From: a virus
Lineage: Duplodnaviria > Heunggongvirae > Uroviricota > Caudoviricetes
Strand: one strand, 5' to 3'
Virus record (IMG/VR): IMGVR_UViG_2547132415_000014
Coordinates: 1-21,879 of that record
Length of the DNA stretch: 21,879 nt
In this document: positions 2,254 to 21,247 of the stretch, one piece after another
How positions within the stretch are numbered: the stretch's first letter is position 1
How the letters are laid out: each line of letters opens with the position of its first letter
The notes under the pieces: generated by a model
What the model was told of the DNA's origin: nothing
Database searches by the model: none
What the model saw: only the letters and a program-made list of their open reading frames with translations
Translations under genes and position numbers: made by a program

Positions 2254-2796
2254 ATGAATTATCCAACTATCGTTGACGGCATTGATTTCAAAGAACTGGT
2301 TTTTATTACCAACAATGACCCTGTCACCGATTCATTTATGGTGGCGAAAGCATTTCGTAAGCGACATGACAACGTTGTGCGTGATGTAGAAAGAACTATC
2401 GCTGCTTGTCCTGAAGAGTTTGATACAAAACTCAATTTTGAGGTTTGCTATAAAAACAATGAGTTACAGAATGGTAAGCCACAAAAATTCTATCGGCTAC
2501 GTAAGGATGGGTTGATGCTTTTGGTTATGTCCTACACCAAAAAAGAAGCAATGCGGATCAAAATTGCTTACATCAACGCATTCAACTGGATGTACGCCAT
2601 GCTTCAGGTTGGTCATCGTCAATTTGAAGAAGAGAGAAATGCCGTAATGCTGGAGTACATGAAAGAGAAGGATGTTGCCAGCATGTCAGGCCGCCTGCTT
2701 AATCGCTGGGGAAAAATTAAGAAGCCTCAGCTACTGGCGAGAATTGAACGCCTTGAACAGCACGGGCAAACCGTAATCCCCGGACTCACCAATTAA
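2254..2796 (+). CDS. Rha-family phage regulatory protein
   Basis: 180-aa product with the Rha-domain signature region (DSFMVAKAFRKRHDNVVRDVERTI) near the N-terminus; accessory position between lysis and terminase genes. Confidence 0.75.
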   Translation: MNYPTIVDGIDFKELVFITNNDPVTDSFMVAKAFRKRHDNVVRDVERTIAACPEEFDTKLNFEVCYKNNELQNGKPQKFYRLRKDGLMLLVMSYTKKEAMRIKIAYINAFNWMYAMLQVGHRQFEEERNAVMLEYMKEKDVASMSGRLLNRWGKIKKPQLLARIERLEQHGQTVIPGLTN

Positions 2797-14439: not shown

Positions 14440-15915
14440 ATGGCTACGTGGCAACAGGGTATTAATTCTGGTGGTTTTCTGGCTGGCATCGGTACGCAAA
14501 ATGAGAATGCGCCAAAGGCAAGCGACATTAACGCAACGCTTGGTCTGATCCGCGAAAACAATGAATTGGCTCGATCAGGTGCAAATAACGTTGGTCTGAC
14601 CGCGTTACGTGGTCTGGCTGGAGTTGCTGATATTTATAAGCAGGAACAGCAACAGAAAGCTATTAGGGCGTTCAATAAGGTTCACGCTGATGCATGGGCT
14701 TCTGGTGATCCATCGGGACTATTTAAGTTTGCCAAGGAAAATCCAGCGTTTGTTGCACAGGCACAACAGGCGTTTTCCGGTCTTAATGAGCAGCAACGTA
14801 ACGATATGGGCGATTTAGCCATGAGGGCTAACGTCGCTCTTTCTCAGGGACCGGAAGCCTACAGTAAATTCATTACTGACAACAAGGACAGGTTAAATCG
14901 CGTTGGCGCTAATGCTGACTGGATGATTCAGACAGGTATTCAGAATCCAGAGCAGCTATCACACATGCTGACTACTATGTCTCTCGGTGCGCTTGGACCA
15001 GAAAAGGCGTTTGCTGTTCAGGACAAGATAGCTGGTCGTGAGATTGACCGAGGCAGACTGGCAGAGACAATCCGCAGCAATCAGGCCAGCGAAGCACTTC
15101 AGGCGAGAGGGCAGGATATTAGCCGAGCAAATGCGTTAACGTCAGCATATGCACCAACAGCCGCAATGCAGAATTACAATCAGTACGCGCAAATGTTAAA
15201 GGCGGATCCAGATGGTGCAGCGGCATTTGCGGCAGCGGCGGGAATTAATCCCAATGCTAAGAAATTACTTAAGGTTGAAACCAATCCTGATGGCTCGGTA
15301 ACTAAGTATTACACCGATGGCAGCGAGGAAGCAGGAAAACTAAACCAACCTATATCTGGTGATGGCATTAAACCAATTAGTTTGCCACAAGCGCAAAGCA
15401 TCATAGATAAGGCTAATGAGGGTTCCAAGAAGGCGGCAGGATTTGCTTTGCGATTAAAAGATTCAATGGACTCAATGAATCAGCTTAGTAAAAGCATTGA
15501 CCCTAAGCGAGTTGCATTAATAAATCGCTCTCTTGGTGATGGGACTATTGCAAATTTAAGCCTATCACCAGCGGAGCAGCAATATATGGTAAATGCGAGA
15601 GACGCCTTGTATGCAATTTTGCGCCCAGAAACAGGTGCAGCAATTACTCTGCCAGAGATGCAGGAGTATTCCAAAATGTACCTGCCTCAGCCCGGTGATT
15701 CCAAGGCTGCTACTGAAACAAAAATGCGAAAAATGCAGGGCCAATATAACTCATTACGTGGTCAGTCTGGTCGCGTTTATGATGCTTTGGTGGTTTCAAG
15801 TGCTGCAAATAGTCAACAACAGAGCAATAGCCAACAACCGACAAATACCCAACAGCAGCAGAGTCAATCCGGATCATATACCTCAAAATCAGGCATTCAA
15901 TTTACGGTGGAATGA
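14440..15915 (+). CDS. ejection protein (P22 gp20-like)
   Basis: 491 aa; second gene of the ejection block; Q/S-rich low-complexity C-terminal tail. Confidence 0.85.
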
Positions 15916-17753
15916 TGAAAGTAACTGCAAACGGTAAGACATTTACCTTCCCTGATGGTACGAGCACGGAAGATATTGGCACCGCCATTGATGAGTATTT
16001 TGCTGGTCAGGCTGTTCAGCAACAAACAGTTAATCAGGCCAATAATGAACCAGCACGTGAAGAACCATCATTGATGCAACAAGCTGGCGATTGGCTCACA
16101 GGTGGTCAAAGTGCAGGGCAAATTGCAGAGCAGGCTGGTCGTGGTCTGGTAAACATACCATTTGACGTATTGCAGGGTGGCGCAAGTCTGATTAATGCAA
16201 TCAGTCAGGGGCTTGGTGGGCCAAAAGTTTTGGATGATGTTTATCGTCCTGTAGATAAACCGACAGACCCATACGCACAAGCCGGTGAAACAATTGGTGG
16301 GTATTTAGTTCCAGGAGTTGGAACGGCAGGAAGCATGGCTATTGGATCGCTGGCAGAGGCCGCAAATCAGAAAGGCGATTTCGCACAAAATGCAGCTAAA
16401 AATGCCGGAGTTAACCTTGCCGCTCAGGGTGTTCTTTCCGCAGCAGCAAAGGGAATAGGGCGTGGAATAACGGCTATAAAAGGTGATATTGCGCCAGAAG
16501 TGGCGAAGAAAATTGCCACATCAGAATCGATGGGCGTGACACCAATGACATCTGATGTTATCCCGCCGAAAAATGCTTTCACTCGCGGCCTTACTCAGGA
16601 TGCCGAGGGGGCTTTGCTCGGGACGGGCTCAAAGCGAGCAGAGCAATATGCAACGCGTAGTAAGCTGGTAAGCAATTATTTTGACCGTTTTGGTGAGTAC
16701 AACCCTGATGATGTGGTGAAATCTCTGACCACCACGTTAAGGGGGCGGAAGGATGCTGCTGGCGCTGTTATCAATGACGTCACCAATAAAATGGGTAATG
16801 CCGCAGTTGATACTACAAATACCATGAATGCTCTGAATACAGCGATCGCAAGACAGGAACGGCTTGGGACTTCAGCCAATCAAAGCCTGCTTACATCCTT
16901 GCGTAACCTGCGTGAAGAATTAGCAAACCCTGCAACTGATTTGGATGTTACGTTTGATCTCTTGCGTCAGCACAGAACAGCATTTAGATCTAATGTTCAG
17001 GGAGATGCTATGGTCTTCCCCAACCAGGCAAAAGCAGCTACCAATATGGTAGAGAATGCAATGTCAAAAGACCTTCGTAACGCAGTTGCAAAAAACCTCG
17101 GTGCGTCAGACGCAGCAAAATACCTTAAAGCAAATTCCGATTATGCAAACGTTTATAATAAGGTGCTTAATAAAAACATTGCTAACAAGCTCAACAAGGC
17201 AAGCAGTGAAGCCAGTCCTGAACTTATAAATACTGTTGTATTAAGCAGAAAACCATCTGACGTGAAACGAATCTGGAGCGCATTGGATGATAAAGGGAAA
17301 GATGCTATGCGTGCAGCTTACGTCAGCAAAATAGCGGAAAAGGCCGGTGACTCTCCAGCCAAGTTCATCACTGAAGTTAATAAGCTGAAATCTCAGTCAG
17401 GCGGTGAAATTTACAACACTATTTTTTCTGGAAAGCACATGAAAGAGCTTGATTCTCTTCATGAAGTTCTAAAGCAAACAGCAAGGTCAGACACCGCAAA
17501 TGTAGTAACTCAGACGGGGCAATCGCAAGCCAACCGGATAAGGACGATTGGCGCAACTGCGACTCTTGGCGTATCAATGGGGCTTGAGGCTGGCTTTGGT
17601 GCAATGATGCGTTTGTATGAGTCTAAAGCAGCAAGAAACATGCTTCTCCGCCTTGCAAACGTCAAGCCTGGAACTCCGGCATATGAGCGAGCGTTAAATC
17701 AGGCTGCTAACGCCGTTCGCCCTCTCCTAACTAACGAAGCTACCAGGCAGTAG
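15912..17753 (+). CDS. ejection protein (P22 gp16-like)
   Basis: 613 aa beginning [38 protein letters not shown], recalled as P22 gp16-like; start overlaps the gp20 stop (the true start may be the second ATG at 15915). Confidence 0.9.
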
Positions 17754-17772
17754 AAATGAACGCCAAGGAAGG

Positions 17773-18102
17773 CTATTTAATTCTCTTTTCAATGGCTGCA
17801 ATTATTGCTTTTCCTGATGTTTCAGGAGATTTTGTAGCCATATAAGACGAAAAAATCATGTCGGTCATTCTTTCATAACTTACTATTTCCCACTTAGCCA
17901 ATGCATGGGACAGTTTGTAGTTGTCATCAGTTAGTGCCCTTATGGAATTTTTTAAGTGTTTATTCTCTTCTGTTAATCGCGCAATTTTTGTATCAATTTC
18001 ATGTGAGCGATCTAATTCCTTAACCTGTTTCTTGAGGGCAGCTAACCCTGCATATAGTACGCAACAGGATATCCCAAGAGCGAGTACGACTATTTCTAAC
18101 AC
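17773..18102 (-). CDS. small bitopic membrane protein: N-terminal TM helix plus coiled-coil domain (function unknown)
   Basis: GTG start at 18102 with a strong SD AAGGAGG 5 nt upstream (plus-strand cctcctt 18108-18114); product MLEIVVLALGISCCVLYAGLAAL then a heptad-like KKQVKELDRSHEIDTKIARLTEENKHLKNSIRAL; AT-rich. The 181-aa ATG-extended version looks like antisense junk. Confidence 0.6.
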   Translation of the reverse strand: MLEIVVLALGISCCVLYAGLAALKKQVKELDRSHEIDTKIARLTEENKHLKNSIRALTDDNYKLSHALAKWEIVSYERMTDMIFSSYMATKSPETSGKAIIAAIEKRIK

Positions 18103-18132
18103 ACCAACCTCCTTAGTTTTTCGCAGGATACC

Positions 18133-18498
18133 ATGAAAAAAGTTAACATTGGAAACGTACCAAAGATGCTCGTTCCGCTCTTTGAGAGCGGTACAATTGT
18201 GTTTTGTAGAGACTTTCCAGAATGGCAACGCCTGCATCAAAAACTTGGTGTGGACGTGCAGGACTCGGATGCCAACGGAGCGTCTCATACAATGAGCAGC
18301 GAGAATGGTGTTTTGCATGTGATAGGCGTGTTCAATGGCAAACTATCTACTATTGCCCATGAGTGCGCTCACATGGCATTCGATATCTGCTCAAGGGTCG
18401 GTGTTGATGTTGAACCAGGAAGAGCCAACGAGACTTACTGCTACTTAATGAGCAGGCTTGTTGAGTTCTGCGAGCGACATATCAAAAAGCCGGAGTGA
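18133..18498 (+). CDS. HExxH zincin-like small protein, possible minimal ImmA/IrrE-type metallopeptidase (function unknown)
   Basis: 121 aa; motif TIAHECAHMAF followed about 14-20 residues later by E...ANE...YLM, a pattern recalled from M78-type peptidases; SD-like agga 5 nt before the ATG. Start codon uncertain (internal Met alternatives exist). Confidence 0.55.
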   Translation: MKKVNIGNVPKMLVPLFESGTIVFCRDFPEWQRLHQKLGVDVQDSDANGASHTMSSENGVLHVIGVFNGKLSTIAHECAHMAFDICSRVGVDVEPGRANETYCYLMSRLVEFCERHIKKPE

Positions 18499-18506
18499 CC
18501 CGGCTT
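18487..18506. terminator. candidate bidirectional terminator hairpin (aagccgg-agtgac-ccggctt) between the HExxH gene and the YjzC-like gene
   Basis: 7-bp stem flanked by an A-run on one side and a T-rich stretch on the other, so it reads as a hairpin plus U-tract on both strands (better on the minus strand). Confidence 0.45.
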
Positions 18507-18511
18507 GATTA

Positions 18512-18691
18512 TTACTTTTTGCTGTCTGGAGTTCGCTTATCTAATACCCAGCCATGACCTGGCTTTGTTGTTGGTGGAAGCCTTTCGTTGTCCTTGACGG
18601 TGGCAAAATTGTCTTTCTTACCGCCGCGCGGGCCAACTTCTTGGTATATTCCGCCGTTTTTTCCTGTGTTTTCACCTGGTTTTTTCGCCAT
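18512..18691 (-). CDS. YjzC-like small protein (59 aa)
   Basis: ATG at 18691 preceded by gaggt; product MAKKPGENTGKNGGIYQEVGPRGG...LPPTTKPGHGWVL shows the KPGE/NGGIY/LPPT pattern recalled for the YjzC family; own promoter candidate upstream. Confidence 0.6.
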   Translation of the reverse strand: MAKKPGENTGKNGGIYQEVGPRGGKKDNFATVKDNERLPPTTKPGHGWVLDKRTPDSKK

Positions 18692-18727
18692 GATATACCT
18701 CAACATACACCCGTTATTGGGCGATTA

Positions 18728-18756
18728 AATATTGATCTCATTTTATAAGTAGTCAA
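18728..18756 (-). promoter_or_regulatory. candidate sigma70 promoter for the YjzC-like gene (-35 TTGACT, 17-bp spacer, -10 AATATT)
   Basis: Minus-strand TTGACT (plus 18751-18756) and AATATT (plus 18728-18733) with 17-bp spacing, about 35 nt upstream of the start codon and just downstream of the mnt terminator. Confidence 0.4.
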
Positions 18757-18783
18757 TATGGCCCAGGTAAATGCAAAAATTAA

Positions 18784-18805
18784 CCCACCGTCAGGTGGGT
18801 TTTTT
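18784..18805. terminator. bidirectional intrinsic terminator (cccacc-gtca-ggtggg) flanked by A5 upstream and T6 downstream
   Basis: Perfect 6-bp GC stem; T6 on the + strand (18800-18805) and ttaattttt on the - strand; the hairpin overlaps the mnt stop codon. Confidence 0.7.
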
Positions 18806-19042
18806 GTACAAATCCTTCAGCGTATCAAACACCATCTTCTTAACAAGTTCGGACTGCTCATCAGCGATGCGTTCCGCATCGTCTCGATAGCCTGAAATTT
18901 TGGATGGCTTTGATACAGCATCAGTCACTATCTGAACTAATTCTGAATTAAGAGAGCGGCCATTGGATTTGGCTCGCTGTTTTAGTTTTTCCTTTAATTC
19001 GTAAGGTAGCCGCAGATTAAATTGCGGGTCATCTCTTCCCAT
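18791..19042 (-). CDS. mnt: Mnt repressor (ribbon-helix-helix, Arc/Mnt family)
   Basis: 83-aa product MGRDDPQFNLRLPYELKEKLKQRAKSNGRSLNSELVQIVTDAV...DAERIADEQSELVKKMVFDTLKDLYKKPT, recalled as closely matching P22 Mnt; leftward orientation as in P22 immI. Confidence 0.9.
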   Translation of the reverse strand: MGRDDPQFNLRLPYELKEKLKQRAKSNGRSLNSELVQIVTDAVSKPSKISGYRDDAERIADEQSELVKKMVFDTLKDLYKKPT

Positions 19043-19101
19043 TCTTGATGCCTCGCTTTTGTGAGTGGATCGGCATCTTATTATCTGCTGGTTGCATCCT
19101 C

Positions 19102-19124
19102 AATAAGACCACAGTGGTCGTATT
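19102..19124. promoter_or_regulatory. candidate Mnt operator: near-perfect palindrome centred on 19113 (core GACCACAGTGGTC)
   Basis: 13-bp perfect palindrome 19107-19119 extended to about 21 bp with one mismatched pair; lies in the mnt-tailspike intergenic region, where O_mnt sits in P22. Confidence 0.55.
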
Positions 19125-19189
19125 TTTTTGATTAATAATGCATCACTGTGGCAATGATGCGGCGATTCCTTGTATCTGGAGCAAATTAA

Positions 19190-21247
19190 ATGACAGACAT
19201 TACAGCCAATGTTGTAGTGAGTATGCCTTCGCAACTCTTCACTATGGCTCGTTCTTTTAAAGCCGTAGCCAATGGCAAAATTTATATCGGTAAAATTGAC
19301 ACTGACCCAGTAAATCCTGAAAACCAGATTCAGGTTTGTGTGGAGAATGAAGACGGTTCTCACGTTCCTGTTTCGCAACCAATAATCATTAACGCTGCTG
19401 GATATCCGGTATATAACGGACAGATTGCCAAGTTCGTAACTGTGCAAGGCCATTCTATGGCTGTTTATGATGCGTATGGTGCACAGCAGTTCTATTTTCC
19501 TAATGTGCTGAAGTATGACCCGGATCAGTTAAGACAAGAGTTAGCAACAGAGGGTAATGAAATACTTGTTGACGACTCCCGTATTGCAGTTAAAAGTGTT
19601 CATGTAAATTCAAAACTTAGAACCCAGCACAATAAAAACGCAGAAATAATCACGCCAAATGATTTTATATCAAATTATGACATGATATCTGCAGCTATTA
19701 ACTCTGGAGATAGTGCCGCAGTATTTAATTCCAGGTATGCATTCACAATAACAGTTGGGGAATATGGTAATTTTAAATCTATTAGTGATGCTCTAAACTC
19801 AGCTGTTGCACTGCGTCCACTATGGAAAAATGGCATTGATTTTTGCATAATTAAAATTCTTTCCGGTTTTGTGCTCAATGAGCAAATAGAAATTTCAGCA
19901 GGATGTGACTTATCATGGATTAAAATAATATCAGAAGACTCAGTGGTTTTCTCTGATACCAGTTTGTTTACTAAAACTGTTAGGACGTATTACGAATACA
20001 AATATTTATTTTACATTTGCGATGCAGCAAAAAGTCCTGTATTTGCTATTCAGATTGAAGAAAATAGAGATGATAGCGATGTTTGTGCATTTATTGTAAC
20101 TCAAAAAGCTGAACTTAATTTCTATCCGTATTCAGGTGCTCGAAAGTTCTACGTTGGAATTCATGGTAGCTTTGGTGCAAAAATTAGTGCATATCATACC
20201 GGATGTGCTCCTGATGAGGAAAGTGTTGCTGCATATATGCCAGAAGGGTATTACGTATGTGATTTTTCTTATAGCAGATACTCTTCCCTGCAACTGGTAA
20301 ATAATGTCAAGGCATCAATGCCTGTAAGCAAGTTTGAACGGTGCACAGAGAGTACGGTTGCGTCAGTTAATTGTATTTATAATGTTAAAGCAGATTTTCA
20401 GGGGTCAAGTGCAAGCTATTGTTATATAGGATGGAATGTAAGAGATGGTTCAAATGTTAATATACGCGACCATAAAACTATACATTGCTCATATCGTGGA
20501 TTAACCTGCATTCATACAGCATATGTTGATGCAAGACGACATGACGTTGAAGAAAGTGATGCAGAAACAAGTGGTAAAGTCCTTGAACCAAATATTGAAA
20601 AAGGTTTTTATGGATGTGCACTTGGTGTGCGTATTGATGGTGCGGGTTGTGTTGATGTTGCTGGTAATGATATGCGCAATTGTGGAACAGCCGTTAATGC
20701 AGACACTGGTGCTGTTATTTCAGGAAAGGCTGTAGATATCTCAGGGGCTGAGTTGGGATTTGATTGCCATGCAGGAGCATCTGTTAATTTTCCAAGGCTA
20801 TGGGGTACAGATATAAAAAAATTAATGCACCTCCAAGATGGTGTAAGGTTTAACTCTAATATTTGTCATGTATTTGGTGCAAATCCCACAAAAGATATTA
20901 GATGGATTGATGTAGAGAGATCTGAAGCTTCTTTTATGAATGCAACGCTGGATGCAGATTCAGGATTTATTGCCGACTGTGGTAGTAGGATAACCATTGA
21001 AGGAAGTAAAGTTAAAAACCAAACAATAAGAAGTTTTTTTGGATCACATGTGGCTATAAATAATACTGTTGCTGACAGAACTTATTCAGATATAGCCGAT
21101 GTTCCGCAGTTGACTATTAGTGGAGGATCTTTTATTTCTGCTACAGGATATTCTAATTCTGACTCCAGCCCTCTTAGGTTGAGCACAACACGAAATACAC
21201 TTGGAGTTGGAGGAGCCATATTTTCAACCAATGGGGAAGTTTCATGA
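19190..21247 (+). CDS. tailspike protein: P22 gp9-type N-terminal head-binding domain fused to an unrelated beta-helix-like receptor-binding/depolymerase domain
   Basis: First ~110 aa ([34 protein letters not shown]...NVLKYDPDQ) recalled as P22 tailspike head-binding domain; the rest is unrelated, AT-rich, Cys-rich (~20 Cys) and Asn/Ser/Gly-rich. Confidence 0.9.

What the first reader, a model, noticed from the sequence alone, without database searches (positions are those of the whole stretch)
17773..18102. Bitopic TM plus coiled-coil protein with GTG start and perfect SD, divergent from the HExxH gene
The longest ORF call (181 aa from ATG 18318) overlaps the HExxH gene antisense and its N-terminal 72 residues look like non-coding translation. 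A GTG at 18102 with AAGGAGG 5 nt upstream gives a 109-aa protein: N-terminal TM helix, a heptad-rich coiled coil, and a short C-terminal tail. This architecture is shared by i-spanins and by divisome proteins FtsB/FtsL, and it is the kind of protein expected for superinfection exclusion at the inner membrane. The gene is markedly AT-rich, and its promoter must lie inside the HExxH coding region.
Basis: partly seen in the sequence, partly recalled or inferred. Interest (0 to 1): 0.55.

Follow-up and report, generated by a model that had tools for sequence, protein, structure and literature searches.

The report
Swappable membrane gene in sieA slot
This is a real 109-residue membrane-anchored leucine-zipper protein of unknown function, encoded where phage P22 keeps its superinfection-exclusion gene sieA; it is one of at least twelve unrelated, mostly membrane or secreted proteins that P22-like prophages plug into the same tiny promoter/ribosome-site/start-codon "socket".

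Summary
GTG 18102, AAGGAGG 18114-18108, a 5-nt spacer and a 109-aa ORF ending at 17773 are all present, and GC is 37% against 47% for the window. Comparative data settle the start. Homologues have GTG, TTG or ATG at the same position, with in-frame stops 9-16 codons upstream, and PGAP calls the same 330-bp gene. The 181-aa ORF is an artefact.

The window is a P22-like prophage late region. The gene fills the sieA slot, convergent with ejection gene 16. It belongs to PHROG 8100 (unknown function), a very small family found only at this position.

The protein has an N-terminal TM helix and a GCN4-type zipper (a = I40/N47/I54/N61; d = L43/L50/L57/L64). Its roughly 40-aa C-terminal domain is the most conserved part (omega 0.03-0.12), not a "tail". 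It is not homologous to SieA, HkcB, FtsB/FtsL or spanins. The charge pattern predicts N-out/C-in, the opposite of FtsB/FtsL/Rz.

A scan of 120 viral contigs showed the same 33-nt socket driving 12 unrelated cassette families, 11 of them with a TM helix or signal peptide. Only SieA is characterised.

Best guess, untested: a prophage-expressed, SieA-independent exclusion or defence protein acting at the inner membrane.

The parts
17773..18102 (-). CDS: 109 aa plus stop, GTG start. PHROG 8100 family; identical to RefSeq WP_000890120.1 'hypothetical protein'.
18100..18132 (-). 33-nt 'socket' GGTATCCTGCGAAAAACTAAGGAGGTTGGTGTG: short leader, SD and GTG. Shared nearly unchanged by P22 sieA, HK620 hkcB and 12 unrelated cassette families.
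18108..18114 (-). Shine-Dalgarno AAGGAGG, 5 nt before the GTG.
18125..18133 (-). Candidate extended -10 promoter TGGTATCCT (TGnTAnnnT). Inferred, not mapped experimentally.
   Evidence: motif kept as TGATAGAGT / TGTTAAAGT / TGGTAAAGT at -31 to -39 in diverged loci; T precedes the socket in 120/120 loci; TGATATGCT in L134
18133..18163 (-). Equivalent of the PsieA promoter feature annotated in the P22-pbi record (31-61 nt upstream of the GTG). Lies inside the 5' end of hkcC.
   Evidence: Leavitt 2024 (PMC10883804): 85 bp upstream of sieA suffices for function
18034..18093 (-). Codons 4-23: single transmembrane helix IVVLALGISCCVLYAGLAAL. Flanked by the acidic N-terminus MLE and by the basic LKKQVK.
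   Evidence: AF2 helix
17905..18006 (-). Codons 33-66: leucine zipper (a = I40, N47, I54, N61; d = L43, L50, L57, L64).
17776..17904 (-). Codons 67-109: conserved C-terminal domain ALAKWEIVSYERMTDMIFSSYMATKSPETSGKAIIAAIEKRIK (helix, SPETS loop, helix). Under strong purifying selection.
17762..17772 (-). 3' boundary motif CCTTCCTTGGC (consensus CCATCC[AG]TGGC), immediately after the stop codon. Shared by 8 of 12 unrelated cassette families.
15912..17753 (+). Neighbour: gene 16-type ejection (DNA transfer) protein, convergent with the candidate; the two stops are 19 nt apart. 74% identical to P22 gp16 over residues 116-613.
18133..18498 (+). Neighbour: hkcC-like 121-aa HExxH protein (PHROG 1365, unknown function), divergent from the candidate; the two start codons are 30 nt apart.

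Best explanation
The feature is a genuine 109-aa gene (GTG 18102 to TAG 17773) in the 'ant moron' of a P22-like E. coli prophage. It sits in the slot where P22 carries sieA.

Expression (inferred): it is driven by a compact, self-contained module shared with sieA and hkcB. The module is an extended -10 (TGGTATCCT), a short leader, AAGGAGG and GTG. It is therefore probably transcribed from the prophage, opposite to the late operon.

Product (shown from sequence, conservation and the AF2 model): a bitopic inner-membrane protein. An N-terminal TM helix is followed by a four-heptad GCN4-like zipper with Asn at two a-positions, which implies a parallel homodimer. The zipper presents a strongly conserved helix-loop-helix C-terminal domain.

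Topology (inferred from charge): N-out/C-in, so the zipper and C-domain hang about 6-7 nm below the inner membrane in the cytoplasm.

Function (inferred from position only): a prophage-expressed envelope defence. Most likely it blocks DNA delivery by incoming P22-like phages at the inner membrane, as a functional analogue of SieA and not a homologue. The conserved C-domain would be the effector or binding surface. The fast-evolving TM and juxtamembrane part would be the membrane or target-facing adaptor.

Confidence by step: real gene with GTG start 0.97; TM plus dimeric zipper plus C-domain architecture 0.85; interchangeable cassette in the sieA socket 0.9; N-out/C-in topology 0.65; superinfection-exclusion function about 0.4.
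For: Start and coding:
- GTG, TTG or ATG sits at the aligned position; an SD lies 5-6 nt upstream; in-frame stops lie 9-16 codons upstream in L005, L008, L009, L011 and L012.
- PGAP calls the same CDS, and PHROG 8100 is a 109-position profile.
- dN/dS is 0.03-0.12 in the C-domain with high or saturated dS. It is 0.15-1.03 in the TM plus coiled-coil part.
- SPETSG is invariant while its codons vary synonymously.

Slot:
- The window, ST160, P22 sieA and HK620 hkcB are near-identical upstream (three variable columns) through the SD and GTG, and diverge right after the GTG.
- Every family member examined lies convergent on a P22-type gp16 gene between gp16 and the tailspike. This holds for Klebsiella and for the 35%-identity member.
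- A fragment with 85 bp upstream of sieA gives full exclusion in single copy (PMC10883804), and that stretch is near-identical here.

Socket:
- 120 IMG/VR loci gave 119 complete products in 12 unrelated families; 11 of the 12 have an N-terminal TM helix or signal peptide.
- The candidate accounts for 22 of the 119 and SieA for 10.
- Upstream contexts and cassettes reassort freely.
- TGnTAnnnT is conserved at -31 to -39 in diverged loci.

Architecture: KD 2.43 for residues 4-22 and the heptad register; PDB profile hits are all GCN4/Fos/Jun zippers; AF2 gives helix 2-90, a loop, and helix 96-108 at pLDDT 84.6.

Topology: the N-flank is MLE or ME with no K/R, and KK, RKR or RK follow the TM directly in all members. 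SieA type A has the same design, and its TMHMM model places its conserved motif in the cytoplasm.
Against: - There is no experimental datum on this family. Function is inferred only from position and from the one characterised slot occupant, SieA.
- There is no sequence or profile similarity to SieA. The protein has 1 TM against SieA's 3, and the FxRYPxEAxxFNK motif is absent.
- PADLOC gives no hit to a relevant defence family, only weak matches to LmuB and DpdH.
- One slot family (140 aa) is soluble, and the other ten uncharacterised families have unknown roles. 'Slot = exclusion' is therefore an extrapolation.
- The candidate can occur in tandem with an hkcB-type gene, so the two may work together in some other process.
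- Topology rests on the positive-inside rule only. A simple K+R count would mis-assign FtsB and Rz; the argument depends on the missing N-terminal basic residue.
- The consensus -35/-10 scan found no promoter upstream, and the extended -10 has not been mapped.
- A cytoplasmic effector domain is less obviously placed to block a periplasmic conduit.
Confidence: 0.42

Rival explanations
1. It is an anti-phage protein of another type, not an injection block. One possibility is a membrane-tethered abortive-infection sensor or effector that dimerises and perturbs the membrane, or recruits a partner, after infection. Another is an exclusion factor aimed at phages other than P22-like ones.
For: It has the same positional and expression evidence as the main explanation. 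Its predicted cytoplasmic orientation suits sensing of incoming cytoplasmic components better than blocking a periplasmic tube. The fast-evolving N-terminal half (omega up to about 1) fits an arms-race protein.
Against: There is no enzymatic or pore-forming domain. It has one TM helix and a small 40-aa C-domain. PADLOC gives nothing meaningful. The strict linkage to the ejection-protein gene 16 across genera points to the DNA-delivery step.
Confidence: 0.2
2. It is a lysogenic-conversion gene acting on host physiology rather than on phages. Examples would be a modulator of the divisome or of envelope stress that mimics FtsB/FtsL-type zipper proteins.
For: There is weak architectural resemblance: DivIC PF04977 at 17.5 bits, ZapB at 15.8 bits, and FtsL at 13.6 bits for homologue P0012. 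Morons often encode host-fitness factors.
Against: All scores are far below the curated cut-offs of 28.9, 31.5 and 42.45 bits. The resemblance is confined to the generic coiled coil. The predicted topology is opposite to FtsB/FtsL. The conserved part is the C-domain, which has no counterpart in FtsB/FtsL. The family occurs only in P22-like prophages next to gene 16 (and the context calls).
Confidence: 0.1
3. It serves the phage's own lytic cycle. It could be an accessory to ejection-protein handling, a lysis component such as an i-spanin, or a regulator of late read-through into the tailspike gene.
For: It lies inside the late operon region next to gene 16. There are weak PHROG matches to Rz-like spanins (E = 0.015-0.064). 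A terminator-like hairpin on the late strand lies within its antisense.
Against: It is on the opposite strand to the late operon. The phage already has a holin, an endolysin and Rz (phrog_13, E = 1e-71) at 834-2051. There is no embedded or adjacent o-spanin ORF. The slot is dispensable and filled by 12 unrelated genes. Sf6-type phages lack the region altogether (PMC2629481).
Confidence: 0.05
4. The true product is the 181-aa protein initiated at ATG 18318.
For: It is the longest ORF in the mechanical list. One database entry (P0006) carries an N-terminally extended call.
Against: The extension is just the antisense of the highly conserved hkcC. It is absent in five loci with other upstream DNA, where stops lie 9-16 codons upstream. 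The mosaic joint with sieA and hkcB lies at the GTG. A strong SD lies 5 nt before the GTG. The PGAP and PHROG models use 109 aa.
Confidence: 0.02

Closest known systems
P22 SieA (superinfection exclusion A; PHROG 7745; types A-C of Leavitt et al. 2024, PMC10883804)
   Same: Same genomic slot, convergent with gene 16 in the gene 16-gene 9 'ant moron'. Same upstream region, SD and GTG. Low GC. Inner-membrane-type N-terminus with an acidic or uncharged N-flank and a basic post-TM flank. Present only in P22-like prophages.
   Different: No detectable homology. It has 1 TM helix against SieA's 3, with a zipper and a soluble C-domain in place of a polytopic core. It lacks the FxRYPxEAxxFNK motif. 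Its exclusion activity is untested.
HK620 HkcB family (PHROG 5962; function unknown)
   Same: Same slot and socket, and the same 107-109 aa length. Same layout: an N-terminal TM helix, a variable coiled coil and a strongly conserved C-terminus of about 40 aa.
   Different: Not homologous: BLASTP finds nothing and hhalign gives 6% probability. The C-domains are unrelated. The two genes occur in tandem in some prophages.
HK97 gp15 and T4 Imm (small inner-membrane superinfection-exclusion proteins). Cited in PMC10883804 ref. 8 and PMC11436027; details are from my own knowledge.
   Same: The same kind of object: a small membrane-anchored protein, encoded by a moron embedded in a structural-gene region (HK97 gp15), that blocks genome entry by phages using the same entry apparatus.
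   Different: No sequence relationship was tested or expected. They belong to different phage groups (siphovirus, myovirus). No zipper has been reported for them.
FtsB / FtsL / DivIC and lambda Rz i-spanin (bitopic TM plus coiled-coil proteins)
   Same: Gross architecture: one N-terminal TM helix followed by a coiled coil.
   Different: Scores are below every curated threshold. Their N-termini are basic (MGK, MSR), giving N-in/C-out; here the N-terminus is acidic (MLE), so the predicted orientation is opposite. The genomic context is different, there is no partner gene, and the phage has its own Rz.
GCN4/bZIP leucine zippers
   Same: Four heptads with Leu at d and Ile/Asn at a. These are the best PDB profile hits.
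   Different: This is similarity of motif only (E about 0.02). The segment N-terminal to the zipper is membrane-proximal and mixed-charge, not a basic DNA-binding region.

Membership tests
PHROG 8100 / WP_000890120.1 family (uncharacterised) | Full-length profile match | tested here: met
   E = 1.4e-69, residues 2-109 on profile positions 2-109 of 109. The 330-bp sequence is 100% identical (blastn) to the CDS that PGAP annotates as WP_000890120.1.
SieA (types A-C) | Sequence homology to SieA (PHROG 7745 / BLASTP) | tested here: not met
   PHROG 7745 is hit by SieA (E = 3.7e-108) but not by the candidate. The two form separate clusters in all-vs-all BLASTP.
SieA (types A-C) | Three or four TM helices and the cytoplasmic FxRYPxEAxxFNK motif (PMC10883804) | tested here: not met
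   One hydrophobic segment only. The motif is absent on reading the sequence.
SieA (types A-C) | Location between gene 16 and gene 9 homologues of a P22-like prophage, using the sieA upstream region | tested here: met
SieA (types A-C) | Blocks DNA injection by P22-like phages | not testable with these tools
   Needs plating, K+ efflux and DNA-entry assays.
HkcB (PHROG 5962) | Profile or profile-profile homology | tested here: not met
   BLASTP finds no alignment. hhalign gives probability 6.4% over 32 coiled-coil columns. phrog_5962 scores E = 0.011 with no stretch passing.
FtsB/DivIC and FtsL | Score above the curated cut-off of PF04977 / TIGR02209 / NF049847 | tested here: not met
   PF04977 scores 17.5 bits against a 28.9 cut-off. 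The candidate itself has no NCBIfam FtsL hit. Homologue P0012 scores 13.6 against 42.45 and 13.4 against 50.
FtsB/DivIC and FtsL | N-in/C-out topology with a periplasmic coiled coil | tested here: inconclusive
   Charge distribution predicts the opposite: no K/R before the TM helix and KK, RKR or RK after it. No dedicated predictor or experiment was available.
i-spanin (Rz-like) | Gene in the lysis cassette with an embedded, overlapping or adjacent o-spanin lipoprotein gene | tested here: not met
   The lysis cassette with Rz is at 834-2051. There is no same-strand ORF of 20 aa or more inside or beside the candidate.
i-spanin (Rz-like) | Significant profile match to an Rz family | tested here: not met
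   phrog_739 scores E = 0.015 and phrog_89 scores E = 0.064.
Moron (Juhala/Hendrix sense, as used for the 'ant moron' in PMC2629481) | Non-essential gene inserted in an operon, present or absent among relatives, with atypical composition and its own expression signals | tested here: met
   Variable occupancy of the slot. GC 0.37 against 0.474. Opposite strand to the late operon. The promoter is inferred only.
Parallel dimeric leucine zipper | At least 4 heptads with Leu at d and a buried Asn at a | tested here: met
   L43, L50, L57, L64 and I40, N47, I54, N61 are invariant or nearly so. The oligomeric state itself was not tested.

The most novel reading that the evidence does not exclude
The sieA slot of P22-like phages may be a dedicated cassette-exchange site. 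A roughly 35-nt self-contained expression socket (extended -10, leader, SD, GTG) and an 11-nt 3' motif (CCATCCRTGGC) flank at least 12 unrelated genes, mostly for envelope proteins, that reassort freely with their surroundings. On this reading the 109-aa zipper protein is a new, SieA-independent exclusion factor. It would act from the cytoplasmic face of the inner membrane on the gp16/gp20 ejection conduit, possibly together with HkcB. That would make the slot a compact, mineable hotspot of about eleven uncharacterised anti-phage proteins.
Probability: 0.2. Interest if true: 0.75.

Novelty: new variant of a known kind. Interest (0 to 1): 0.5.

Why it matters
Leavitt et al. 2024 report that only 22 of 66 sequenced P22-like phages carry sieA, and nobody has said what the others carry in its place. 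This analysis shows the place is rarely empty. The same promoter/RBS/start socket drives at least a dozen unrelated small proteins, mostly membrane or secreted. The gene in this window belongs to one of the commonest of these families in the capped sample (22 of 119 loci, against 10 for SieA).

If these are alternative exclusion or defence proteins, several things follow:
- They give a ready-made panel for dissecting how podovirus ejection proteins cross the inner membrane.
- They would help explain host-range barriers among Salmonella, E. coli and Klebsiella P22-like phages.
- They are relevant to phage-therapy cocktails.

The comparative socket also bears on a point the literature calls uncertain: the SieA start codon. 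If the gene has no phage phenotype, it is simply one more conserved hypothetical moron.

Tried and rejected
- The 181-aa ORF from ATG 18318 is rejected.
- The i-spanin reading is rejected: the phage has its own Rz in the lysis cassette, the candidate has no o-spanin partner, and no profile match is significant.
- FtsB/FtsL/DivIC/ZapB membership is rejected on sub-threshold, coiled-coil-only scores.
- A bZIP-type DNA-binding reading is rejected: only the zipper matches, and the upstream segment abuts the membrane and is not basic.
- Remote homology to HkcB was tested by hhalign and not found.
- PADLOC gave only noise, with weak hits to LmuB and DpdH.
- The Pfam, NCBIfam and PDB profile searches gave no informative hit for the C-terminal domain.
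- The exhaustive HMMER search of 1.84 billion representatives added only one new full-length relative, P0017. The C-domain does not occur in other protein contexts apart from truncation or fusion fragments (P0013-P0016).
- The one-genome-per-species scan found no member.
- The consensus sigma-70 scan found no -35/-10 promoter upstream of the gene.
- I asked whether SPETSG invariance reflects an RNA or DNA hairpin. Synonymous variation says the constraint is on the protein; the hairpin covariation is suggestive but not significant.
- I did not run a fold search, because the AF2 monomer is one long helix and would match any coiled coil.
- Hofer 1995 (PsieA and the sieA start) and Cumby 2012 (HK97 gp15) are not in the held library.
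Full report
**1. What is there**

On the minus strand the sequence reads ...CTAAGGAGGTTGGTGTGTTAGAAATA.... AAGGAGG occupies 18114-18108, followed by a 5-nt spacer and GTG at 18102-18100. The open frame has 109 codons and ends at TAG 17775-17773. The mechanical ORF list gives a 181-aa ORF from ATG 18318 in the same frame. That ORF runs antisense through the 121-aa HExxH gene at 18133-18498. GC is 0.37 for the gene and 0.474 for the window.

**2. Where it is**

The window is the late region of a P22-like (Lederbergvirus-type) prophage. Its layout is:
- holin, endolysin and Rz at 834-2051
- terminase, portal, coat and the other virion-assembly genes
- ejection genes 7, 20 and 16, with gp16 at 15912-17753
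- the candidate
- an hkcC-like gene
- an orf59a/YjzC-like gene at 18512-18706
- mnt at 18791-19042
- a tailspike with a P22 head-binding N-terminus at 19190-21247

The best overall phage matches are E. coli phages CUS-3, phiv205-1 and relatives. The gene itself is 100% identical in 17 of 5,426 complete E. coli genomes, always on the chromosome.

In P22 the position between gene 16 and hkcC holds sieA. In HK620 it holds hkcB. The ST160 and SE1 records contain the candidate at 94% nucleotide identity but leave it unannotated. PGAP annotates exactly the 330-bp CDS as WP_000890120.1, 'hypothetical protein'. PHROG 8100, a 109-position profile of unknown function, matches at E = 1.4e-69.

**3. The start codon**

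Several lines of evidence agree on the GTG.
- An alignment of the window, ST160, P22 sieA and HK620 hkcB is near-identical (three variable columns) from about 100 nt upstream through the SD and the GTG. It then diverges within one to six bases. The mosaic joint therefore lies at the initiation codon.
- In five homologous loci with other upstream DNA, the aligned first codon is GTG (L008, L012), TTG (L009, L011) or ATG (Klebsiella L005).
- In those loci an SD lies 5-6 nt upstream, and an in-frame stop lies 9-16 codons upstream.
- The 35%-identity member P0017 starts at an ATG after AAAATAAGGAGGTTGGTT.

The 72-residue extension exists only where the antisense frame of the highly conserved hkcC happens to be open. 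The same is true upstream of P22 sieA and HK620 hkcB. Leavitt et al. 2024 call the SieA start codon uncertain. The shared socket argues for the GTG there too.

**4. It is a protein under selection, and the 'tail' is the core**

Fourteen database relatives and an exhaustive profile search of 1.84 billion representatives define a very small family. About five of the representative clusters are true relatives. The rest of the hits are generic coiled coils.

Pairwise Nei-Gojobori estimates give omega of 0.03-0.12 for residues ~68-109, even where dS is above 1 or saturated. The TM plus coiled-coil half gives 0.15-0.5, and 1.03 for the closest pair (window against ST160: 18 non-synonymous and 5 synonymous changes).

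Invariant residues cluster in the stretch KWEI.SYE.MTDMIF.SY.AT.SPETSG..II.AIE.R. Codons of SPETSG vary synonymously while the peptide does not change.

**5. Architecture**

- There is a single hydrophobic segment, residues 4-22 (KD 2.43).
- The family alignment fixes L43, L50, L57 and L64 at d positions and I40, N47, I54 and N61 at a positions. This is the GCN4 pattern; by established coiled-coil rules a buried Asn at a-positions favours parallel in-register dimers.
- PDB profile hits are exclusively GCN4, Fos and Jun zippers at E of about 0.02.
- AF2 with the family alignment gives a helix at 2-90, a loop at 91-95 and a helix at 96-108, with mean pLDDT 84.6.

Topology is inferred. Every member has an acidic or uncharged N-flank (MLE, ME, MIA) with no Lys or Arg. 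Every member also has KK, RKR or RK immediately after the TM helix. FtsB (MGK) and Rz (MSR) carry a basic N-terminus and are N-in/C-out.

The slot's other cassettes fall into the same two classes. One class has MK(K/R/Q) signal-type N-termini. The other class (SieA, HkcB, the candidate and the TM103/106 and 4TM116 families) lacks an N-terminal charge. The TMHMM model of SieA type A in Leavitt 2024 puts its C-terminal motif in the cytoplasm, which implies an N-out start. I therefore favour N-out/C-in at about 0.65. No dedicated predictor was available.

**6.

- DivIC scores 17.5 bits against a 28.9 cut-off. ZapB scores 15.8 against 31.5.
- FtsL scores at most 13.6 against 42.45, and only for homologue P0012.
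- Rz-like PHROGs score E of 0.015 or worse.
- The phage has its own Rz (phrog_13, E = 1e-71) in the lysis cassette.
- There is no o-spanin ORF in or next to the candidate.
- HkcB has the same length, slot and layout, including a variable TM plus coiled coil and a conserved C-terminus of about 40 aa. It is not detectably homologous: BLASTP finds nothing, and hhalign gives 6% probability.
- The candidate does not match SieA's profile, TM count or motif.

**7. The socket: the most informative context**

I scanned IMG/VR for GGTATCCTGCNNAAAACTAAGGAGGTTGGNGTG. Translating from the GTG gave 119 complete products in 12 families that are unrelated by BLASTP:

| Family | Loci |
|---|---|
| 129-aa signal-peptide protein | 23 |
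| the candidate | 22 |
| HkcB | 17 |
| 62-aa two-TM protein | 10 |
| SieA type A | 10 |
| 140-aa soluble protein | 8 |
| 75-aa two-TM protein | 7 |
| 103/106-aa TM protein | 7 |
| 116-aa four-TM protein | 5 |
| 149-aa TM protein | 4 |
| 99-aa signal-peptide protein | 4 |
| 68-aa YobH-like protein | 2 |

Eleven of the 12 begin with a TM helix or a signal peptide. Nearly all are convergent on an ORF of at least 300 aa (gp16), typically within -4 to 63 nt. Only SieA has a known function.

The socket is also bounded on its upstream side. At least six unrelated upstream contexts join at ...T|GGTATCC, and contexts and cassettes reassort; one context is seen with 11 families. In complete E. coli genomes the socket occurs in 458 of 5,426, and the candidate in 17. 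These proportions come from an exact-pattern, row-capped sample and are indicative only.

**8. Promoter**

The P22-pbi record annotates PsieA 31-61 nt upstream of the GTG, which corresponds to window 18133-18163, inside hkcC. Leavitt 2024 showed that 85 bp upstream suffices for SieA function in single copy. That stretch differs here at two positions.

The socket works with unrelated upstream DNA, however. All 120 loci have T before GGTATCCT, giving TGGTATCCT. Diverged family loci keep TGATAGAGT, TGTTAAAGT, TGGTAAAGT or TGATATGCT at -31 to -39, against about 0.008 expected per locus.

I therefore infer an extended -10 promoter at 18133-18125. It lies in the 30-nt spacer between the divergent start codons and would give a short leader. 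This has not been mapped. The consensus -35/-10 scan finds nothing there.

**9. The 3' edge**

Eight of the 12 families (64 of 119 loci) carry CCATCC[AG]TGGC, with up to two mismatches, 0-6 nt after their stop codon. This includes the candidate (21 of 22) and SieA (10 of 10). The background rate is 0.0075 per window.

The window has CCTTCCTTGGC at 17772-17762. The 35%-identity member has CCATCCTTGGC. The same 10-mer forms the last codons of hkcB, encoding ...NPSMDD. It may be a remnant of an ancestral hkcB, or a linker used in cassette exchange. I cannot tell which.

**10. Mechanism, with its status**

Shown:
- It is a real gene.
- Its product is a membrane-type zipper protein with a conserved C-domain.
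- Its position is fixed next to the ejection-protein gene across Escherichia, Salmonella and Klebsiella.
- It shares its expression signals with sieA.

Inferred:
- It is expressed from the prophage.
- It forms a parallel dimer.
- Its topology is N-out/C-in.

Conjectured (about 0.4): like SieA, it interferes with DNA delivery by incoming P22-like phages at the inner membrane. The conserved C-domain would be the interacting surface, and the rapidly changing TM and juxtamembrane part would reflect adaptation. SieA's genetic targets are the C-terminal regions of gp16 and gp20 (PMC10883804).

Rivals are another defence mode (0.2), a host-physiology moron (0.1), a lytic-cycle accessory (0.05) and the 181-aa form (0.02). 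The tandem candidate-plus-hkcB arrangement in L009, L010 and L012 shows that the cassettes can be stacked. That fits independent defences or a two-component function.

**11. Novelty and verdict**

The variability of the gene 16-gene 9 'ant moron' is published (Villafane 2008, PMC2629481), and so is SieA's mechanism (PMC10883804). The gene itself is already in RefSeq and PHROGs as a hypothetical protein.

I found no description in the held literature of any of the following:
- this family's architecture;
- the finding that sieA-less phages carry alternative envelope cassettes in a shared expression socket;
- the flanking motifs.

The two most relevant older papers (Hofer 1995, Clark 2001) could not be read. 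I rate it a new variant of a known kind, with interest 0.5.

Noticed in passing
window 18100-18133 (minus); loci L014-L133: The 33-nt sequence ending in the GTG is a shared expression socket. In 120 viral contigs it is followed by 12 unrelated cassette families, and 11 of the 12 begin with a TM helix or signal peptide. Only SieA has a known function. Upstream contexts and cassettes reassort freely.
   Followed up: yes
window 17762-17772 (minus); L134 4048-4058; 64 of 119 socket loci: The motif CCATCC[AG]TGGC lies 0-6 nt after the stop codon of 8 unrelated cassette families (background 0.0075 per window). The same 10-mer encodes the last residues of HkcB (NPSMDD). It contains the small dyad GCCA-N4-TGGC. 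Its role is unknown: a linker, an hkcB remnant or an RNA 3' element.
   Followed up: partly
window 18125-18133 (minus); L005, L008, L009-L012, L134: A TGnTAnnnT extended -10-like motif is kept 31-39 nt upstream of the start in all diverged loci, in five sequence versions. It suggests a promoter that needs no -35 element and sits between the two divergent start codons.
   Followed up: partly
L012 5001-5680; L009 92-771; L010 86-765: In some prophages the candidate homologue is followed in tandem by an HkcB-family gene (107 aa) with its own SD. The two slot families can therefore be stacked in one operon.
   Followed up: partly
window 17810-17829 (+ strand): A terminator-like hairpin with a T-run lies just downstream of gene 16 on the late strand, antisense to the invariant SPETSG codons. 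The third-position pair is complementary in five of seven homologues (T/A, A/T, G/C) and broken in two. This is suggestive of covariation but not significant.
   Followed up: partly
window 15912-17753 (gp16), C-terminal ~100 residues: gp16 is 74% identical to P22 gp16 over residues 116-613. Within the otherwise conserved C-terminus the divergent patch coincides with the region where the SieA-escape mutations G532W and P546S map. G532 is conserved here, and the P546 equivalent is Ala.
   Followed up: no
L003 (P22-pbi) 2004; window 18100-18102: Leavitt 2024 state that the SieA start codon is uncertain. The mosaic joint shared by 12 cassette families at the GTG supports that GTG (the 164-aa form) as the SieA start.
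   Followed up: partly
window 18133-18498 (+): The hkcC-like 121-aa protein carries HECAH (HExxH) and belongs to PHROG 1365, with no Pfam or NCBIfam hit. The same sequence is 99.4% identical in P22 but is not annotated in the P22-pbi record. It is only one of at least six alternative upstream neighbours of the socket.
   Followed up: no
proteins P0013, P0014, P0016, P0042, P0043: Truncated or fused derivatives exist. One example is the candidate's C-domain joined to the ORF antisense of mnt (P0013). Another is the HkcB C-domain on a different, non-TM N-terminus (P0042, P0043). Both indicate ongoing deletion and recombination in this region.
   Followed up: no
window 18512-19189: This 'ant moron' has orf59a/YjzC-like (64 aa) and mnt genes but no arc or ant; only 147 nt separate mnt from the tailspike start. 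This is the ST160/SE1-type arrangement. Bidirectional terminator-like hairpins lie at 18487-18506 and 18782-18801.
   Followed up: no
window 2254-2796 (+): A Rha-like regulator or antirepressor (PHROG 518, E = 2e-81) sits just after the lysis cassette. It may be an alternative antirepressor in a phage whose immI region lacks ant.
   Followed up: no
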